Source: a virus. From it: a stretch of 64,000 nucleotides of DNA. Below are positions 2,120 through 41,331 of this stretch, one piece after another. The stretch covers positions 1 through 64,000 of IMG/VR virus record IMGVR_UViG_3300002026_000015. One strand, given 5' to 3'. Numbering within the stretch: the stretch's first letter is position 1; the number at the start of each line of letters is the position of its first letter. The notes beneath the pieces were generated by a model. The model was not told where the DNA came from. It saw only the letters and a list, made by a program, of their open reading frames with translations, and did no database searches. Position numbers and translations under genes: made by a program.

Positions 2120-4225
2120 TTATGCAACGTTTCCAAATATACGATCCCAATTATTAAACACCGATTTGAAATCGTTAGTTCGATTAACTCCACGATTTTC
2201 AACATACATAGGTTTAACAACACTATTTTCGTTATCTTTAACGTTTGCAATGTTTGATCTAATATTATCAAGATCATCACTATCTTCCAGTGAATCCCCA
2301 TCAAACTCTCCAGAAACTTTATGAATTTTAGTCTTCATACCATCTCTAAAGATTTTCTTAGATGTAAGTAAATTAGACAGATCTTCAATAGAATGAATCT
2401 CATTCTGATGACTCATGAGATCATTATACTGATCTCCAATGATTCTTCTAAGTTTACTATCAGTTTTCTTTTTAGCATTACCAGAGTTTCCAATAACTCC
2501 GACCATATTACCTTTATCGAAGTCAGACAATATTTTAGACTTATCTATATACATTCCTACATCTTCCACATAAAGTAAAAAGTATAGTCCTAATAGATAT
2601 GCCATAAGTGTATCATCATGGTTTCCTGGTCTATGGTCTATTCTACCATTTCTAAGACGGATAAGTCCTGATATTTCAGAAATAATAGTTTTATCCATAA
2701 TTCTATCACCATATTCATCAACTGCAATACGAAGTAATACATTGAAGAGTATAGGGCGAATTTTCTTACTGTTGAAGATACCTGGGCGATCTGGTCCTTC
2801 ATGGTATACTCTACGAGTTCCACCAGGGATGTAACTTACGATATTATCGATAATTGCACCATTGTAGTTACGCTCAGGGAATATTACCAAGTTAGGGAAT
2901 AGATCAGTCATGATACTTATGATACCCATCGAATAAAGAGTTGTACTTTGAGAGTTAGTTCTCATTACAGCAACAACTTTAAAATTGGTAGGATCTATAA
3001 CAACTAAAGTTGAGAAGTCTCCTTTTAAGTTACCACCTAAGTCCATACCACCGATCAACTGTTTACTACAATCAAATTTGCTTAGATCAACGTATATACG
3101 CATTGCATATGTATCATTAATAATAGCGTGGTCTAATGGAGATTTAATAAGAGTATTCAATCTCTCAATACGTTCTTGACCAAGAGGGTGTTCAGTGGAA
3201 ATATCTTTCCATTTATTAAGAACTTCTCGATCTAGCGTATCTTGCGGAGTAGGAGAGTTAGCAAGACGACGTTTTTGATCATCAAGATAATTCTCATCTT
3301 TACCAAGGTCATAATACATGAAGGAAAGATCAATGAATCCTGAAGTGGAAGTATTGTTAATAATTGTTTTAACAACTTCAATTTCCATATCATAATAAGA
3401 TTCAGAGAAGTCTGCACAACTCATAAGGAATTTATAAGACCATTTGCCTTCTTCGGTATTAAGGAATCCTGCAGTAGTTGTCATGATCTGATGATAAGGA
3501 GAACCATTTTCTCTTGCGAGTTCAGATGCTTTACTATATGCGAAAGAGATACTATCGTACATTTCACCGATATAGCTAATGAACGCGATCTCGTCAAACC
3601 ACTGAGAAGGAGTTGTAAGTCCTCGACCAGCTTTTCTAGCACCATCAGGATTTCGAGCAGGAGCACGACAAGATATACGATTATCATTAGATCGATTGTA
3701 CATCTCTCTTTCATTATCTCTATCCTTCTTGCTATCATACTGATTAAGCCAATCCGGAAGATTATCTCGTATATCTTTTACACCTTGAAGGTTTTTCTTT
3801 ACAATAGCATCTTCGTGTGCAATGAATACCATTTTATTGTGGACACTTCCCCAATAATAAAGGTAATTGTATATAGTACACATAGTTGTAGTTTTATAAG
3901 CCTGTCGCGGCCATACTACAAACGCACTTATATCATTGATAACTGCCCATACTAAGGCTAATGTTCCACGATGGAACTCAAATCTTGCTACACCACCACC
4001 TGCAGGAATTCTCACAATTTCTCTGAAGAAGTACCACGGATTATTAATAATCTCATGAGTAATCATTGCCTTTTCCAATTCAGTCAATGTTTCAGAGAAT
4101 GGATCTACATGCAATAGTGCAGGATTGTCTAACCTGAGCATAAATTTATTATTCTTTACACCCATCTCACCGAGTAGATACGCCATCTTGACGGCAGAAT
4201 CATTCGTTGTATTAAAATGGATCAT
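2120..4225 (-). CDS. terL: terminase large subunit (jumbo-phage type)
   Basis: NPWYFFRE, Walker A-like PRQAYKTT, Walker B QWFDE, nuclease motifs GMDLGG...D, PERN and HDDTLMA. Confidence 0.92.
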   Translation of the reverse strand: MIHFNTTNDSAVKMAYLLGEMGVKNNKFMLRLDNPALLHVDPFSETLTELEKAMITHEIINNPWYFFREIVRIPAGGGVARFEFHRGTLALVWAVINDISAFVVWPRQAYKTTTMCTIYNYLYYWGSVHNKMVFIAHEDAIVKKNLQGVKDIRDNLPDWLNQYDSKKDRDNEREMYNRSNDNRISCRAPARNPDGARKAGRGLTTPSQWFDEIAFISYIGEMYDSISFAYSKASELARENGSPYHQIMTTTAGFLNTEEGKWSYKFLMSCADFSESYYDMEIEVVKTIINNTSTSGFIDLSFMYYDLGKDENYLDDQKRRLANSPTPQDTLDREVLNKWKDISTEHPLGQERIERLNTLIKSPLDHAIINDTYAMRIYVDLSKFDCSKQLIGGMDLGGNLKGDFSTLVVIDPTNFKVVAVMRTNSQSTTLYSMGIISIMTDLFPNLVIFPERNYNGAIIDNIVSYIPGGTRRVYHEGPDRPGIFNSKKIRPILFNVLLRIAVDEYGDRIMDKTIISEISGLIRLRNGRIDHRPGNHDDTLMAYLLGLYFLLYVEDVGMYIDKSKILSDFDKGNMVGVIGNSGNAKKKTDSKLRRIIGDQYNDLMSHQNEIHSIEDLSNLLTSKKIFRDGMKTKIHKVSGEFDGDSLEDSDDLDNIRSNIANVKDNENSVVKPMYVENRGVNRTNDFKSVFNNWDRIFGNVA

Positions 4226-4256: not shown

Positions 4257-4268
4257 CATTAAGATGTC
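4257..4268 (-). promoter_or_regulatory. late-type promoter GACA-N6-TG
   Basis: GACA-TCTTAA-TG upstream of terL. Confidence 0.6.
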
Positions 4269-4365
4269 TATATTAAGTTATGACAAAGTCGGATATAAGA
4301 TAAGATTTCTTATACTTCGCAAAATTTTTCTATGGTTCAAAGTAACCAGGAACGGATTTATTATG
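4267..4365 (+). repeat. conserved ~100-bp early promoter/structured leader, copy A
   Basis: About 90% identical to 26481-26579 (8 substitutions and 2 indels by hand count); 32 nt identical to 49456-49487. Confidence 0.9.
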
Positions 4366-4701
4366 ACTACTCTTACAACAACTGAGCCTGTATCTAAATT
4401 TTCTCTCACTATCGCTGATTTTAAGGCAAATAATGTTGACATGATATGGCAGCAGGAATGTATATTTAACGGGGAACTTACCCCGGTTAAATATAAGGTT
4501 ATTGTGGATGATGAGTACAAATTGAAGTTAACATTATCGTTCCCCGATCTTGGGGAATCACTTACAATGAACCTAACAGATATTCATGAGGAGTATCCAG
4601 AAAATGATAATGGGGAAACCCATTATGAAGATCAGATGGGAAGCTTCATCGTGAATGTAAAGCTTACCGATGAAGTTATTTACTTTACAATCTATAAATA
4701 A
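4363..4701 (+). CDS. hypothetical acidic protein (single-gene early cassette)
   Basis: Start reassigned to ATG 4363 after the conserved leader and RBS; ends before a terminator. Confidence 0.75.
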   Translation: MTTLTTTEPVSKFSLTIADFKANNVDMIWQQECIFNGELTPVKYKVIVDDEYKLKLTLSFPDLGESLTMNLTDIHEEYPENDNGETHYEDQMGSFIVNVKLTDEVIYFTIYK

Positions 4702-4719
4702 GATTGTAAAGTAAATAGA

Positions 4720-4749
4720 AAGAGGAGGGAATTAACCCTCCTCTTTTTT
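4720..4749. terminator. bidirectional terminator
   Basis: AAGAGGAGGG-aattaa-CCCTCCTCTT plus T tract. Confidence 0.8.
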
Positions 4750-4750
4750 G

Positions 4751-5362
4751 TTATAATTCGGATAATAATCTTTTAAACATATTTAAATTATGTTTTTCAA
4801 GACTAGACATCGATTGTTTAAATTTTTCATAATCTTTTCCAAATGTTAAACATTTGAATTTATAAAAATTAGTTTTAACAAACAATCTCCCAATGAATTG
4901 AGCTTTCGCTGTTTCAGATATGATAATTGAAGTATTATGCAAACTATCTTTAATTCTAGAATTTTCAACTTCAACTACACTCTTATCTAAAGATTCATAT
5001 CTCCCAATTATCATTTTAATAATTTTCAATATTTTAGATTTATCATCAATTTTATCAAAATTATAATCCGTAAATGGAATTATACGATCTTTATCATCAG
5101 AATCATAACCTGTAATATCTGCGATAGTTTCGGAAAAGTCTTTAAAATTCTCACGATTTCCATCTCGCTTATAGTATTCAAAATCTTCACGATCAATACC
5201 ATTTACCGAATTTATAAAACTTCGAATATTATCACTGTAGGTCGATATTACATCTTCATAGATATCATAAATCTTGAAATCATCATATTTATTTAAGATT
5301 TTTTCAAGTTTATGATTATCTAGAAGTTTTTTAATGAAGTCGCCTGCAGCCGACTCTACTGA
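4751..5362 (-). CDS. -1 frame extension (203 aa) of the 714-aa protein, probably reached by programmed frameshift
   Basis: Frame is open from 5362 to 4751 with no ATG/GTG/TTG until 5029; slippery heptamer at 5368-5362. Confidence 0.7.
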   Translation of the reverse strand, partial: SVESAAGDFIKKLLDNHKLEKILNKYDDFKIYDIYEDVISTYSDNIRSFINSVNGIDREDFEYYKRDGNRENFKDFSETIADITGYDSDDKDRIIPFTDYNFDKIDDKSKILKIIKMIIGRYESLDKSVVEVENSRIKDSLHNTSIIISETAKAQFIGRLFVKTNFYKFKCLTFGKDYEKFKQSMSSLEKHNLNMFKRLLSEL

Positions 5363-5368
5363 AAATTT
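5337..5368 (-). promoter_or_regulatory. -1 ribosomal frameshift signal (slippery heptamer plus hairpin)
   Basis: A AAU UUU, 5-nt spacer CAGUA, then GAGUCG-gcugcagg-CGACUU stem-loop. Confidence 0.7.
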
Positions 5369-7500
5369 TCTTCACCAACACTAATTTTAAAATCGCCATT
5401 ATTCGAAGAGATTTCAGCACTCTCGATAATATCGGAAATTTTACTAATAGTAGTCTGAGCAACCTCAGCTTCATCTTCAGTCAGATTACCAGTATCTACA
5501 ACCATTGAAAGTTTAATAGATCCTTTATATGCTTCAGCAAGAGCTTCTTCATCTTCAGACTCAGCAGCAAATTTCGCATCAGAAATCAACTTATCACAAT
5601 ATGGTTTAATGTCTACTCCGAGTTTTGTATCACTCATAAACAGAGAAATCATATTCTGAGAGGTCTTAGAGAAAATGTTTCCAAATGCCCATCCACCTTG
5701 TTTGAGATCTTCAGTATCTTCGGATTCGTATGAAGTTTTAGGTCCACCACGAACGTTGAGTTTGTTTTCCATATCATTACGCATACTATACATCTTACTT
5801 GTAATAGAAGCAATGTAGCGAACAAGACGGTAAACTGTACCCATACCTGTGATACGTCCACGAATATTCATGAATTTATCAAAGAGGCCGCTTTTATTTA
5901 CGATATCTTTAATATCTCCCTGTCTATCATCTTCGCTTTCATTGTCCCACTCACGAGGACCATCGGTTGCAGGAGTACAACATTTACTATCAGAAGCTGA
6001 GATAAATGTGTCTTTCTGAACGCTATACAAATATCGTTCACCTTGTTCAACACCATTAACTCCGGATCTCATAATATCTTTGACAAATTCATAGTCTTTT
6101 ACAGAGATATTCTTAGATTTGTAAAGACGATCTTTGATGTCAAATACATATTTAAGAGTAAATGATCCGGAAATGATAGCTGCAACTGATTGGTAGAATT
6201 CATCGATAACTTTAGTGTAATCAGGTGCTACACTTTCGAGATATTCAAAAATTCTATTAATCTCATAACTATCATGAGTTCGATCGCCATCGAAACAACG
6301 ACTTGGAATTCCAACGAGGTTTTCAATTCCAGCGTTGAAATCTTTACTGCCGATAGACACTGATGCCAATGACACCATGAATACAATAGAATTCGACACA
6401 AGGAATTCCAACATCGCGTCATCTTGATCTTTAGGAGCAACAAAGATATTCTTTGTCATGATATCTGAAATCATAGAGTTGAATACGAAATCCATACTAC
6501 GTGATCCAGTCAATACTCCAGCATAAGTTCTTGATGCAGCATATTGAGAAGTTCTAGGATCTTCTGACCAACCAGCCTGATACAGAGGGCTATTCTTAGC
6601 GAAGAATCTCATCTTATCGGCAACGTATTGACGAGTTCCTTTGAAAGATACGTTCGAATAATATTTATTCAAACTTCCAATGGTACTTACAAAGATAGAT
6701 GTCGCAAACTTCGTACTGATAACGAAACTATCCATCATTTCAGTCAAGAAAGTTCTTGATGAAATATAACTGAGAACCTCACCTACAACAGATCTGAACA
6801 GAGTTCTAAACGTTGAAGTGTCAAGACTCTTAAGTGCTTCGCCTTGGAGTTTATTCCAAACATGGATAGTTATGATTCTATACATATCATCTTTATCGAT
6901 ATGGGTGTACACATTGATAATGTCAGATTTGTTGAGAGTCTCAACATCTTCAGGTTTATCAAGAGCTGTACGAGCCATCGGGATACAGTATGAAAGTGGT
7001 ATCAGTGTATCATCGATTTCACAATCAATTTCACGACGGATTGTAGAAAACTTATCAGATTCGCTATCACTGAACTCAACAGCTTTAAAACGTTTAAGAA
7101 GTGTAGTGAAAACGTTTTCACCCTTCTTAGGATGTCTAACATTGTCATCAAGACGATAAAAATGTTTAATCGCATCGAATCCAGGGATTACAGAATCCGC
7201 AGTAAGTTTTACATTGTTGGTAGATGCGTCAATTGGTTGAATAATTGATCCAGCTTTCAAACCATAAGATCTTCTAAGTGTATTATAACTTGAAGAGAAT
7301 GTTTTGAGAAGTTCATCATAATCCGCATCATTGACACTGTTACCACGTTCATCGCTGAGAACTTTGGTTAGCAACTCAGTGTATTCTTTAACATAATTCT
7401 GCAAAATCTGAGAGATGTTGAAGTCATAGGTATTGAAAAACCCTGTTAATGCAAACTCTCTCAGGTTGTTACTAGTCTTAGGATTTCTATCAAGATCCAT
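5356..7500 (-). CDS. large late protein, probable virion (head) protein
   Basis: 714-aa ORF, late promoter GACA-TCATAT-TG at 7531-7542, adjacent to another head-like protein. Confidence 0.7.
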   Translation of the reverse strand: MDLDRNPKTSNNLREFALTGFFNTYDFNISQILQNYVKEYTELLTKVLSDERGNSVNDADYDELLKTFSSSYNTLRRSYGLKAGSIIQPIDASTNNVKLTADSVIPGFDAIKHFYRLDDNVRHPKKGENVFTTLLKRFKAVEFSDSESDKFSTIRREIDCEIDDTLIPLSYCIPMARTALDKPEDVETLNKSDIINVYTHIDKDDMYRIITIHVWNKLQGEALKSLDTSTFRTLFRSVVGEVLSYISSRTFLTEMMDSFVISTKFATSIFVSTIGSLNKYYSNVSFKGTRQYVADKMRFFAKNSPLYQAGWSEDPRTSQYAASRTYAGVLTGSRSMDFVFNSMISDIMTKNIFVAPKDQDDAMLEFLVSNSIVFMVSLASVSIGSKDFNAGIENLVGIPSRCFDGDRTHDSYEINRIFEYLESVAPDYTKVIDEFYQSVAAIISGSFTLKYVFDIKDRLYKSKNISVKDYEFVKDIMRSGVNGVEQGERYLYSVQKDTFISASDSKCCTPATDGPREWDNESEDDRQGDIKDIVNKSGLFDKFMNIRGRITGMGTVYRLVRYIASITSKMYSMRNDMENKLNVRGGPKTSYESEDTEDLKQGGWAFGNIFSKTSQNMISLFMSDTKLGVDIKPYCDKLISDAKFAAESEDEEALAEAYKGSIKLSMVVDTGNLTEDEAEVAQTTISKISDIIESAEISSNNGDFKISVGEENFQ

Positions 7501-7593
7501 ATAACCGCCTTATTCAGATTAAAATTTCTACAATATGATGTCCATAAAGAAAAGAATTTAGTATGGGATTTCTCCCATACTAAACTATAAATA

Positions 7594-26579: not shown

Positions 26580-26966
26580 GAAGAAGTAGTAGTATTTGGA
26601 TCGACATATGAAGCTGTAAGCTCGTACGAAGGATACCTTAACAAATATTATTGCGTTAAGGTATCAGATGGAACGGTTATTCAATTCTCTTCTCAATCCG
26701 TAGATTTCTACGGTGACGAAGAAGAATCGATTGTTATAAACGGACTCCCGTACTCACGGGAGTCAAAGATTGTTAACGGGACTCAGGTCCTGCTGAACAT
26801 GGATGAACTCGATTTTGGAGTTCACCCATTAAATGGTCCGGAGTTCTTAACAAAACTTTCGGGCGAGATTGATCTGAGAACACTCAGATCAAACCCAAAG
26901 TCGGCAAAGTATGCCGACTTTGTGGAGGCGTATAAGCGCCTGATCGCAGATTTCAACATTCATTGA
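26577..26966 (+). CDS. hypothetical protein (single-gene early cassette)
   Basis: 129 aa after leader copy B; terminator 26968-27009. Confidence 0.8.
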   Translation: MEEVVVFGSTYEAVSSYEGYLNKYYCVKVSDGTVIQFSSQSVDFYGDEEESIVINGLPYSRESKIVNGTQVLLNMDELDFGVHPLNGPEFLTKLSGEIDLRTLRSNPKSAKYADFVEAYKRLIADFNIH

Positions 26967-40599: not shown

Positions 40600-41331
40600 A
40601 TGCTATCAATGCAAATTCTCGTTGCAAGAATGAGAAGAAGATTGCCAAAACCGGTATTTAATGCGGTTGATTTAGATTTCTTTATGGATATCTTATTTGG
40701 AGAAACTCTTGCGGCGATGTCAGCATATTATCCTAGAGTTGTTAAGGGTATACGAGTTACTAGTAATATGGCACTACCGGTAACAGATAGTGATAATTTA
40801 CTGAATTTATCATCTAAATACATCATTCCGATGGTAGATGATTTATATCCGTATACCGCTATCTCTGAGTTCCTCTATCCAAGAAACTTCTTGGGTGGAG
40901 GAACCTTTAGTAATCCTGGAGTAATTGATGCTGTAATATCTACTGTAACAAGTTCTATGAATAGAGCTGAAGTTCGTTTCACTGGAAACTTTGAAGGTCC
41001 AAATATAATTGAAGTTGTTCCGGCACCTAGAGTTCACCAAGATTTCAATGTTTCTCTTTACAGAGTCCCCAGACTCTCCGAGATAAGAACCGGTTATCAT
41101 GAAAACTTTATAAAGTTATTTGAAGCTGATTGTAAGATTGCCCTTTATTATAAATTTTATCAACTTGAAGGTGGCGGCACTTTTGGCGGTATAGAACTCA
41201 AAGATTTTGTCTCAGATTTCAAAGATTATGAAAGTAAACGCGACGATCTTCTCGAAATGTTCGAGAAGGATTATTTCAAAGATCCTGATCGATATGAGGA
41301 AATCTGGAATTATTCAAATTTGAAAGCTTAG
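40600..41331 (+). CDS. probable head-completion/neck protein
   Basis: follows the protease; size and L.EADCK..LY...G.IELK pattern resemble jumbo-phage neck proteins (from memory). Confidence 0.5.
   Translation: MLSMQILVARMRRRLPKPVFNAVDLDFFMDILFGETLAAMSAYYPRVVKGIRVTSNMALPVTDSDNLLNLSSKYIIPMVDDLYPYTAISEFLYPRNFLGGGTFSNPGVIDAVISTVTSSMNRAEVRFTGNFEGPNIIEVVPAPRVHQDFNVSLYRVPRLSEIRTGYHENFIKLFEADCKIALYYKFYQLEGGGTFGGIELKDFVSDFKDYESKRDDLLEMFEKDYFKDPDRYEEIWNYSNLKA

What the first reader, a model, noticed from the sequence alone, without database searches (positions are those of the whole stretch)
4751..5373. Canonical -1 programmed ribosomal frameshift extending a 714-aa late protein to ~916 aa
Seen on the minus strand: the ORF ends GAA GA[A AAT TTT] CAG TAG, an in-frame X XXY YYZ heptamer (5368-5362). 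Five nt later comes a GC-rich stem-loop, GAGTCG-gctgcagg-CGACTT (5356-5337), which stands out in this AT-rich DNA. The -1 frame has a TGA two codons before the heptamer and then stays open for 203 codons to 4751, with no start codon in its first ~110 codons. The shift is therefore confined to the slippery site. TAG readthrough does not help, because the zero frame stops again shortly after. Known: -1 frameshifts give two forms of phage structural proteins (T7 gp10A/B, tail chaperones G/GT). Inference: a jumbo-phage virion protein made in short and long forms, outside the usual tail-chaperone context.
Basis: partly seen in the sequence, partly recalled or inferred. Interest (0 to 1): 0.85.

Follow-up and report, generated by a model that had tools for sequence, protein, structure and literature searches.

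The report
Candidate -1 frameshift in jumbo phage
A 714-residue protein gene of an uncultivated phiKZ-like jumbo phage ends in a textbook slippery site followed by RNA structure, and ribosomes that slip back one base there would add about 200 residues; the signals are real, but conservation and expression could not be tested.

Summary
On the minus strand a 714-aa ORF (7500-5356) ends GAA GAA AAT TTT CAG TAG. The -1 frame has a TGA at 5374-5372, then stays open for 205 codons to TAA 4753-4751, just before a bidirectional terminator.

The first ATG/GTG/TTG in that frame is codon 114. Codon usage switches from frame 0 to frame -1 exactly at the junction. No candidate start has a ribosome-binding site.

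The heptamer A_AAU_UUU is followed after 5 nt by a GC-rich hairpin (-8.3 kcal/mol). That hairpin is part of a larger structured domain (about -35 kcal/mol) that 0 of 600 synonymous re-encodings match.

Contigs from two sequencing runs carry the identical junction. The only homologues (five proteins, about 30% identity) end at the same place, so an assembly error or a recent break of a fused gene is unlikely.

The extension has no detectable homologue. Function is unknown, and "late virion protein" is not shown.

Best reading: a programmed -1 frameshift giving a major 714-aa and a minor 916-aa product (confidence about 0.6). It would be a new member of a known kind.

The parts
5356..7500 (-). 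Zero-frame ORF of 714 aa (P0001), with stop TAG at 5358-5356. An SD (AAGGCGG) lies upstream of the ATG at 7500. Protein of unknown function.
   Evidence: Its only homologues are five Logan metagenome proteins of 667-687 aa at about 30% identity. They end 17-20 residues before P0001's stop.
5362..5368 (-). Slippery heptamer A_AAT_TTT (X_XXY_YYZ). tRNA-Asn in the P site moves from AAU to AAA; tRNA-Phe in the A site moves from UUU to UUU.
   Evidence: Sharma et al. 2014 (PMC4066793), Table S3, measured this heptamer in E. coli: 0.07% -1 frameshifting without a stimulator, 0.36% with the IS911 stimulators and 11.4% with the IS3 pseudoknot. Its class H_HH.U_UU.Y is listed among the most efficient in E. 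coli.
5372..5374 (-). TGA in the -1 frame, two codons upstream of the -1-frame AAA of the heptamer. Together with the TAG at 5358-5356 it limits a productive shift to a 13-nt window.
5337..5356 (-). GC-rich hairpin (6 bp plus 1 bp) starting 5 nt after the heptamer, -7.6 to -8.3 kcal/mol. It is built partly from minor codons: GAG, TCG, GGC and GAC.
   Evidence: Pair probabilities are 0.64-0.85 in a 144-nt context. With 13 of 20 bases G or C, it lies in the top 0.35% of coding windows.
5259..5322 (-). Long AU-rich imperfect hairpin: about 21 bp with two 1-nt bulges, plus 3 apical pairs. Pair probabilities are about 1.0. In an alternative fold a long-range helix (5354-5340 with 5245-5231) encloses it, giving a 124-nt domain that starts 7 nt after the heptamer.
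   Evidence: The 129-nt fold has -34.7 kcal/mol and z = -6.1 against dinucleotide shuffles. None of 600 synonymous resamplings and none of 600 synonymous-codon permutations is as stable. GC-adjusted, it ranks in the top 0.7% of 2749 coding windows.
4751..5361 (-). The -1-frame extension: 203 codons from TCA 5362-5360 to TAA 4753-4751 (the first base of that codon, 5362, is the last base of the heptamer part). There is no ATG/GTG/TTG before TTG 5029. Gene callers report only an 87-aa fragment (P0004).
   Evidence: The codon-usage score of its first 114 codons is 0.436. Real genes score 0.314 +/- 0.098, and open off-frames score -0.02 +/- 0.09 with a maximum of 0.24. The frame switch is seen in 30-codon windows. 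There is no SD better than -3.4 kcal/mol at any candidate start, against a gene median of -6.3.
4717..4748 (.). Bidirectional intrinsic terminator directly after the extension's stop. It ends the transcription unit that carries both ORFs.

Best explanation
This is a programmed -1 ribosomal frameshift.

Most ribosomes translating the 714-aa ORF read AAU UUU CAG and terminate at TAG 5358-5356. A minority pause with tRNA-Asn on AAU in the P site and tRNA-Phe on UUU in the A site. The cause would be downstream RNA structure: either the GC hairpin 5 nt away, or the long-range helix 7 nt away backed by a roughly 21-bp hairpin.

Both tRNAs then slip one base back onto AAA UUU. Decoding continues in the -1 frame for 203 codons to TAA 4753-4751. 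The result is a 916-aa protein that shares its first 713 residues with the short form.

Shown here: the sequence arrangement, the coding potential of the extension from the junction onward, the absence of an independent start, the reproducibility of the junction, and the ancestral position of the zero-frame stop.

Inferred: that slippage actually occurs, its rate, and that both products are used. The rate is probably low, a few percent or less, because this heptamer depends strongly on its stimulator.

The function of both parts is unknown.
For: 1. The heptamer sits in the correct register inside the only 13-nt window where a -1 shift is productive. The chance of that is about 1%.
2. In E. coli A_AAU_UUU shifts at 11.4% with a strong stimulator and at 0.07% without one (PMC4066793 Table S3; class statement).
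3. Structure lies at canonical spacing. The hairpin is at 5 nt, -8.3 kcal/mol, z = -2.3. The larger domain has -34.7 kcal/mol and z = -6.1, is matched by 0 of 600 synonymous re-encodings, and ranks in the top 0.7% after GC adjustment.
4. The extension is coding from its first codons. It has no ATG/GTG/TTG for 114 codons and no SD. It is the only such case among the 30 long downstream-frame continuations in this genome.
5. No terminator lies between the two ORFs, and a strong one follows directly after the extension.
6. Logan contigs of two runs, from different samples of one study, span the junction with 0 differences and 0 gaps. The exact 714-aa and 87-aa products are each on record on 4 contigs.
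7. All five homologues end within 2-4 residues of the last conserved column, 17-20 residues before P0001's stop. The zero-frame stop is therefore ancestral and not a fresh lesion.
8. TAG is an ordinary stop in this genome, used by 13 of 104 ORFs, so no alternative genetic code is needed.
Against: - Conservation could not be tested. The extension has no homologue among 1.84 billion representatives or in the word-indexed searches.
- If the relatives simply lack an extension, the arrangement could be a lineage-specific accident.
- The hairpin nearest the slip site is weak (-8 kcal/mol), and the heptamer is near background without a strong stimulator (0.07%).
- The most robust part of the larger structure starts 40 nt downstream of the heptamer. 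The long-range helix competes with the local hairpin.
- A one-base loss in an A5 or T5 run would also leave an A4T4 junction that looks like a slippery site.
- The two runs may both be sources of this assembly, and their depth is only about 8x.
Confidence: 0.6

Rival explanations
1. A fixed natural frameshift or start loss with no programmed role. In one version a once-fused gene lost a base in an A5 or T5 run. In the other a normal, tightly packed downstream gene lost its start codon. In both, the 203-codon frame is a young, untranslated (or background-level) remnant.
For: - Homopolymer indels naturally leave A4T4-type junctions.
- In this genome downstream genes typically open within a few codons of the upstream stop, so the layout resembles an ordinary gene pair minus a start.
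- The extension is an ORFan.
Against: - The homologues end where P0001 ends, which argues against a fused ancestor.
- The remnant would have to be very young: 205 codons without a stop, with a codon-usage score above the gene average.
- It would not explain the GC-rich hairpin built from minor codons, nor an RNA structure that 0 of 600 synonymous re-encodings reach exactly downstream of the heptamer.
- The same sequence is present in samples released in 2014 and 2023.
Confidence: 0.2
2. The downstream frame is an independent gene started at a non-canonical codon (for example ATT 5335, ATC 5299) or by termination-reinitiation after TAG. The RNA structure would serve another purpose, such as mRNA stability, processing or translational control.
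For: - ATT at 5335 lies 21 nt after the stop, with a weak AGG 7 nt upstream (-3.4 kcal/mol).
- Tight coupling of neighbouring genes is the rule in this genome.
Against: - Non-ATG/GTG/TTG starts are very rare in bacteria and phages (established knowledge).
- The SD score is far below the gene median of -6.3, and the putative SD and start lie inside the hairpin.
- This reading does not explain why the -1 frame is open up to and across the heptamer, nor why a heptamer sits in register in a 13-nt window.
Confidence: 0.12
3. Only the short ORF from TTG 5029 or ATG 5014 (92 or 87 aa, as gene callers report) is real. The 114 open codons upstream of it would be non-coding by chance.
For: Gene callers in four records called the 87-aa product.
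Against: - The upstream 114 codons score 0.436, above the maximum of 0.243 among 128 open off-frame windows.
- Neither TTG 5029 nor the sequence just upstream of ATG 5014 shows an SD (+0.6 kcal/mol at TTG 5029; sequence read).
- A non-coding gap of about 340 nt would be unusual in this densely packed genome (about 87% in ORFs of 100 aa or more).
Confidence: 0.05
4. A sequencing or assembly indel in the A4 or T4 run; the true gene would be one continuous ORF of about 916 aa.
For: The junction lies in two 4-base homopolymers, and depth is only about 8x.
Against: - Independent per-run contigs from two runs agree exactly.
- Four contigs carry the exact 714-aa product.
- The homologues are 667-687 aa and stop at the same place.
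Confidence: 0.03

Closest known systems
Phage T7/T3 gene 10A/10B and Lactobacillus phage A2 major head protein (-1 PRF near the end of a structural gene; Atkins et al. 2016, PMC5009743)
   Same: The -1 shift occurs a few codons before the zero-frame stop of a long ORF. It yields a major short form and a minor C-terminally extended form from one mRNA, and downstream RNA elements are involved.
   Different: The gene here is not a recognisable capsid protein: there is no family, fold or PHROG hit. The extension is much longer at 203 aa. The heptamer is A_AAU_UUU rather than the G_GUU_UUC-type site of T7.
Lambda G/GT tail assembly chaperone frameshift (Xu et al. 2004; Levin et al. 1993, as cited in PMC5009743)
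   Same: A -1 shift on a heptamer near the end of the upstream ORF. Both products share the N-terminal part, and a low shift rate sets a fixed ratio between them.
   Different: The ORF has 714 aa instead of about 140 aa. It lies next to the large terminase rather than before a tape-measure gene, and it has no homology to tail chaperones.
Bacterial dnaX and IS3/IS911 -1 PRF signals (Sharma et al. 2014, PMC4066793)
   Same: The arrangement is a heptamer, a 5-9 nt spacer and a downstream stem-loop or more elaborate structure. A_AAU_UUU belongs to the H_HH.U_UU.Y class that shifts well with a stimulator in E. coli.
   Different: There is no upstream SD-like stimulator at the 10-14 nt spacing. GGTG lies only 4 nt upstream. 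The nearest hairpin is weaker than the IS3 pseudoknot used in those assays. The host translation apparatus is unknown.

Membership tests
Canonical -1 programmed ribosomal frameshift site | X_XXY_YYZ heptamer in the zero-frame register that allows both tRNAs to re-pair | tested here: met
   A_AAT_TTT lies at 5368-5362 in register. The heptamer is experimentally shift-prone in E. coli when a stimulator is present.
Canonical -1 programmed ribosomal frameshift site | Stimulatory RNA structure 5-9 nt downstream | tested here: met
   The hairpin starts 5 nt downstream, at -8.3 kcal/mol. An alternative long-range helix starts 7 nt downstream within a -34.7 kcal/mol domain, with z = -6.1 and 0 of 600 synonymous re-encodings as stable. 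This is a prediction only; the structure was not probed.
Canonical -1 programmed ribosomal frameshift site | A -1 ORF that overlaps the end of the zero-frame ORF, is coding, and lacks its own initiation signal | tested here: met
Canonical -1 programmed ribosomal frameshift site | Conservation of the slip site, the stimulator and the two-ORF arrangement in homologues | not testable with these tools
   The homologous proteins end at the same place. No relatives were found in IMG/VR, JGI, GTDB genomes or GenBank phages.
Canonical -1 programmed ribosomal frameshift site | Trans-frame protein product observed | not testable with these tools
   No RNA run or proteome is available; this needs an experiment.
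Phage tail assembly chaperone G/GT pair | Small chaperone ORF (about 100-150 aa) directly upstream of the tape-measure gene, with chaperone family homology | tested here: not met
   The ORF has 714 aa and no PHROG or Pfam hit. Its neighbour on the same strand is the large terminase.
Frameshift-extended major capsid protein (T7 10B, T3, A2 type) | The zero-frame product is the major capsid protein (HK97 fold) | tested here: inconclusive
   There is no sequence match to any family or solved structure. The AlphaFold model is unusable at pLDDT 36, so no fold test was possible. The predicted all-helical content does not suggest an HK97 fold.

The most novel reading that the evidence does not exclude
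The frameshift is real and couples a protein conserved in a small clade of phiKZ-like mat and freshwater phages to a lineage-specific, start-less 203-aa ORFan module. It would be driven by an unusually large composite stimulator: a GC hairpin plus a roughly 21-bp AU hairpin, or alternatively a 124-nt closed domain. On this reading recoding serves as a route by which a phage captures a new C-terminal domain without gene fusion, in a protein class outside capsid and tail chaperones.
Probability: 0.25. Interest if true: 0.6.

Novelty: new member of a known kind. Interest (0 to 1): 0.45.

Why it matters
Frameshift-made long and short protein pairs in tailed phages are well documented for tail chaperones and for some capsid and tail proteins. 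Cases in other genes are mostly unannotated. Here the records list a 714-aa and an 87-aa protein separately, so about 115 coding codons are missed.

If the frameshift is real, there are three consequences:
- The annotation needs correcting.
- There is a fixed-ratio two-isoform protein next to the packaging genes of a distant phiKZ-like jumbo phage.
- It adds an A_AAU_UUU site with a large structured stimulator to the short list of natural bacterial-type -1 signals.

Its weight is limited because the protein's function is unknown and the family is tiny.

Tried and rejected
**Homologue DNA**
- Scans of IMG/VR found no relative. The queries were the 714-aa protein, the extension, the alignments A1 and A2, and the terminase.
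- Scans of JGI metagenomes and GTDB genomes found no relative either.
- GenBank phages gave nothing by blastn or tblastn.

**Extension homologues**
- phmmer over 1.84 billion representatives returned only the window's own 87-aa fragment.
- Word-indexed searches of near and shorter lengths at E <= 10 found nothing else.
- There is no paralogue in the genome.

**Function**
- Pfam, PHROGs, PDB sequence profiles and the ESM Atlas gave nothing usable.
- The AlphaFold2 models of the 714-aa protein (6-sequence alignment) and of the extension had pLDDT 36 and 37. No fold search was run.
- hhalign against the genes upstream of the terminase in phages Goslar and BpSp found no homology.

**Expression**
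- No RNA holder was listed among the sequencing runs.
- Run X3 leaves the junction uncovered, and run X4 covers only 5400-5550 and parts beyond 5625.

**Other readings considered**
- TAG reassignment was rejected. TAG ends 13 of 104 ORFs, and read-through meets another TAG after 12 codons.
- Transcriptional slippage was rejected, because the runs have only 4 bases.
- An upstream SD-like stimulator was rejected. GGTG lies 4 nt from the heptamer, not 10-14 nt.
- A loop-to-downstream pairing first noticed by eye (CUGCAGG with CCUACAG) is by itself no more than chance. It appears as part of the alternative long-range helix.
- Rfam gave nothing at the junction.
- The earlier notes of this scan held nothing relevant.
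Full report
**What the window is**

The window is the first 64 kb of a 108,627-bp IMG/VR virus record that CheckV estimates to be 41% complete. DNA identical to the region occurs in microbial-mat metagenomes. A fragment about 98% identical occurs in a freshwater metagenome.

The neighbouring 701-aa ORF (2120-4225, minus strand) is a large terminase. It is 28-33% identical to the terminases of phiKZ-like jumbo phages such as Goslar, BpSp, Goe21, RP12 and PA7. GC content is about 33-36%. TAA, TGA and TAG are all used as stops, in 69, 22 and 13 ORFs, so the standard code applies.

**The observation**

- The minus-strand ORF 7500-5356 encodes 714 aa and ends GAA GAA AAT TTT CAG TAG.
- A_AAT_TTT (5368-5362) is in X_XXY_YYZ register.
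- The -1 frame has TGA at 5374-5372 and then runs open for 205 codons to TAA 4753-4751.
- A bidirectional intrinsic terminator at 4717-4748 follows immediately. No terminator lies between the two frames.
- The first ATG/GTG/TTG of the -1 frame is TTG 5029, codon 114-115.
- A shift at the heptamer would give 713 + 203 = 916 aa.

**Is the extension coding, and from where?**

I scored codon usage with a log-likelihood trained on the other ORFs of the genome. The first 114 codons of the -1 frame score 0.436 per codon. Real in-frame windows of that size score 0.314 +/- 0.098. Off-frame windows that happen to be open score -0.02 +/- 0.09, with a maximum of 0.243.

In 30-codon windows the signal passes from frame 0 to frame -1 between 5385 and 5340. 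Translation of the -1 frame therefore has to begin at or very near the junction.

**Can it start by itself?**

Genes in this genome have clear Shine-Dalgarno sequences. The median duplex energy is -6.3 kcal/mol, and 51% of genes reach -6 or better against 6% of random positions. No candidate start in the first 115 codons, including ATT, ATC and ATA, is better than -3.4.

I also looked at all 208 shifted-frame continuations past the stops of 104 ORFs. Thirty run for 100 codons or more. These are ordinary, tightly packed downstream genes. All but this one have a start codon within 14 codons of the point where the frame opens.

**Is the junction real?**

Logan contigs assembled separately from two runs span 4700-5700 with no difference and no gap. 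The runs come from different samples of one study, released in 2014 and 2023, with word depth of about 8. The exact 714-aa and 87-aa products are on record on four contigs each. The two runs may be sources of the record, so this counts as reproducibility rather than full independence.

More telling, the only homologues of the 714-aa protein are five metagenomic proteins of 667-687 aa at about 30% identity. They align along its whole length and end 2-4 residues after the last invariant column, 17-20 residues before P0001's own stop. The zero-frame stop is thus a family feature and not a recent lesion of a longer gene.

In the freshwater relative, the three differences within 5400-5550 are all synonymous third positions of frame 0 (read).

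**The signals**

- *Chance of the heptamer.* In-frame X_XXY_YYZ heptamers occur 110 times in about 31,500 codons. Three registers fit the 13-nt window, giving a chance of about 1%.
- *Measured slipperiness.* Sharma et al. 2014 measured A_AAU_UUU in E. coli at 0.070% without a stimulator, 0.355% with the IS911 stimulators and 11.4% with the IS3 pseudoknot. They list H_HH.U_UU.Y among the most efficient bacterial motifs (PMC4066793). The site is therefore competent but dependent on a stimulator.
- *The nearby hairpin.* Five nucleotides downstream lies the hairpin 5356-5337, at -8.3 kcal/mol. It is as GC-rich as only 0.35% of coding 20-mers and uses the minor codons GAG, TCG, GGC and GAC. Only 8% of the genome's in-frame heptamers have as good a hairpin at 3-9 nt.
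  - None of 600 synonymous resamplings and none of 600 synonymous-codon permutations of the encoded peptide is as stable (z = -4.7 and -5.2).
  - After GC adjustment the window is in the top 0.7% of 2749 coding windows. None of the 426 windows with GC <= 0.31 equals it.
- *What is robust and what is not.* The robust core is an imperfect hairpin of about 21 bp, 5322-5302 with 5279-5259, with pair probabilities near 1. The part next to the slip site has two competing forms: the local GC hairpin (spacer 5 nt), or a 13-bp long-range helix, 5354-5340 with 5245-5231 (spacer 7 nt). Which one forms depends on the context folded.

**What it most likely is**

The best reading is a programmed -1 frameshift. 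It would give a major 714-aa product and a minor 916-aa product. Confidence is about 0.6.

The main reservation is that conservation could not be examined. The extension has no detectable homologue anywhere.

The rivals, in order of weight:
- A young, unprogrammed frameshift or start loss (0.2). The junction in A4T4 would be expected from a homopolymer indel. This reading does not explain the structure or the ancestral stop.
- A non-canonical start or reinitiation (0.12).
- Only the 87-92-aa ORF being real (0.05). The coding scores contradict this.
- Assembly error (0.03).

**Function**

Function is unknown. Pfam, PHROGs, PDB profiles, the ESM Atlas and two AlphaFold runs gave nothing usable.

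In Goslar and BpSp the genes just upstream of the terminase are annotated as virion structural proteins. Profile comparison shows no relation to this family. 'Late virion protein' therefore remains a guess from position.

**Comparison with known systems and novelty**

The arrangement works like the -1 shifts near the ends of T7/T3 gene 10, the phage A2 head gene and lambda G/GT (PMC5009743). Its signal architecture resembles that of dnaX and IS3/IS911. It is neither a tail-chaperone pair nor a recognisable capsid gene.

It is best filed as a new, still unverified member of a known kind of recoding. The points of interest are the long extension, the ORFan nature of the added module and the large overlapping RNA structure.

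Noticed in passing
window 2120-4225 (-): The 701-aa large terminase is 28-33% identical to those of phiKZ-like jumbo phages (Goslar, BpSp, Goe21, RP12, PA7). This places the uncultivated mat phage as a distant relative of that group. PHROG profiles match mainly its first 200 residues.
   Followed up: partly
window 4264-4701 (+): A 145-aa ORF on the opposite strand lies between the terminase and the frameshift unit. It has no SD (+0.8 kcal/mol) and only a modest coding score (0.195). It converges on the same bidirectional terminator (4717-4748). Whether it is a real gene or the terminase promoter region is open.
   Followed up: partly
window 26667-26945, 40780-41000 (+); genome 81751-81940 (+): These are the most stable 129-nt RNA folds among the coding-strand windows of the genome (-43 to -54 kcal/mol, GC-adjusted z from -3.3 to -5.0). 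Rfam finds no family in the window at gathering threshold, and ARAGORN finds no tRNA there.
   Followed up: no
window 7555-7586 (-): A terminator-like hairpin lies between the 327-aa ORF (8577-7594) and the 714-aa ORF. The 714-aa gene may therefore have its own promoter in the roughly 55 nt before its SD.
   Followed up: no
genome-wide (G000): The codon pair AAT_TTT occurs 21 times against about 41 expected from codon frequencies. Of the six in-frame A_AAT_TTT sites, only the one at 5368 is followed by a long open -1 frame (205 codons; the others run 2-16 codons).
   Followed up: yes
window 5400-5550: A freshwater metagenome from another study holds a fragment about 98% identical. Its three differences are all synonymous, so close relatives of this phage are not confined to the mat.
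   Followed up: partly
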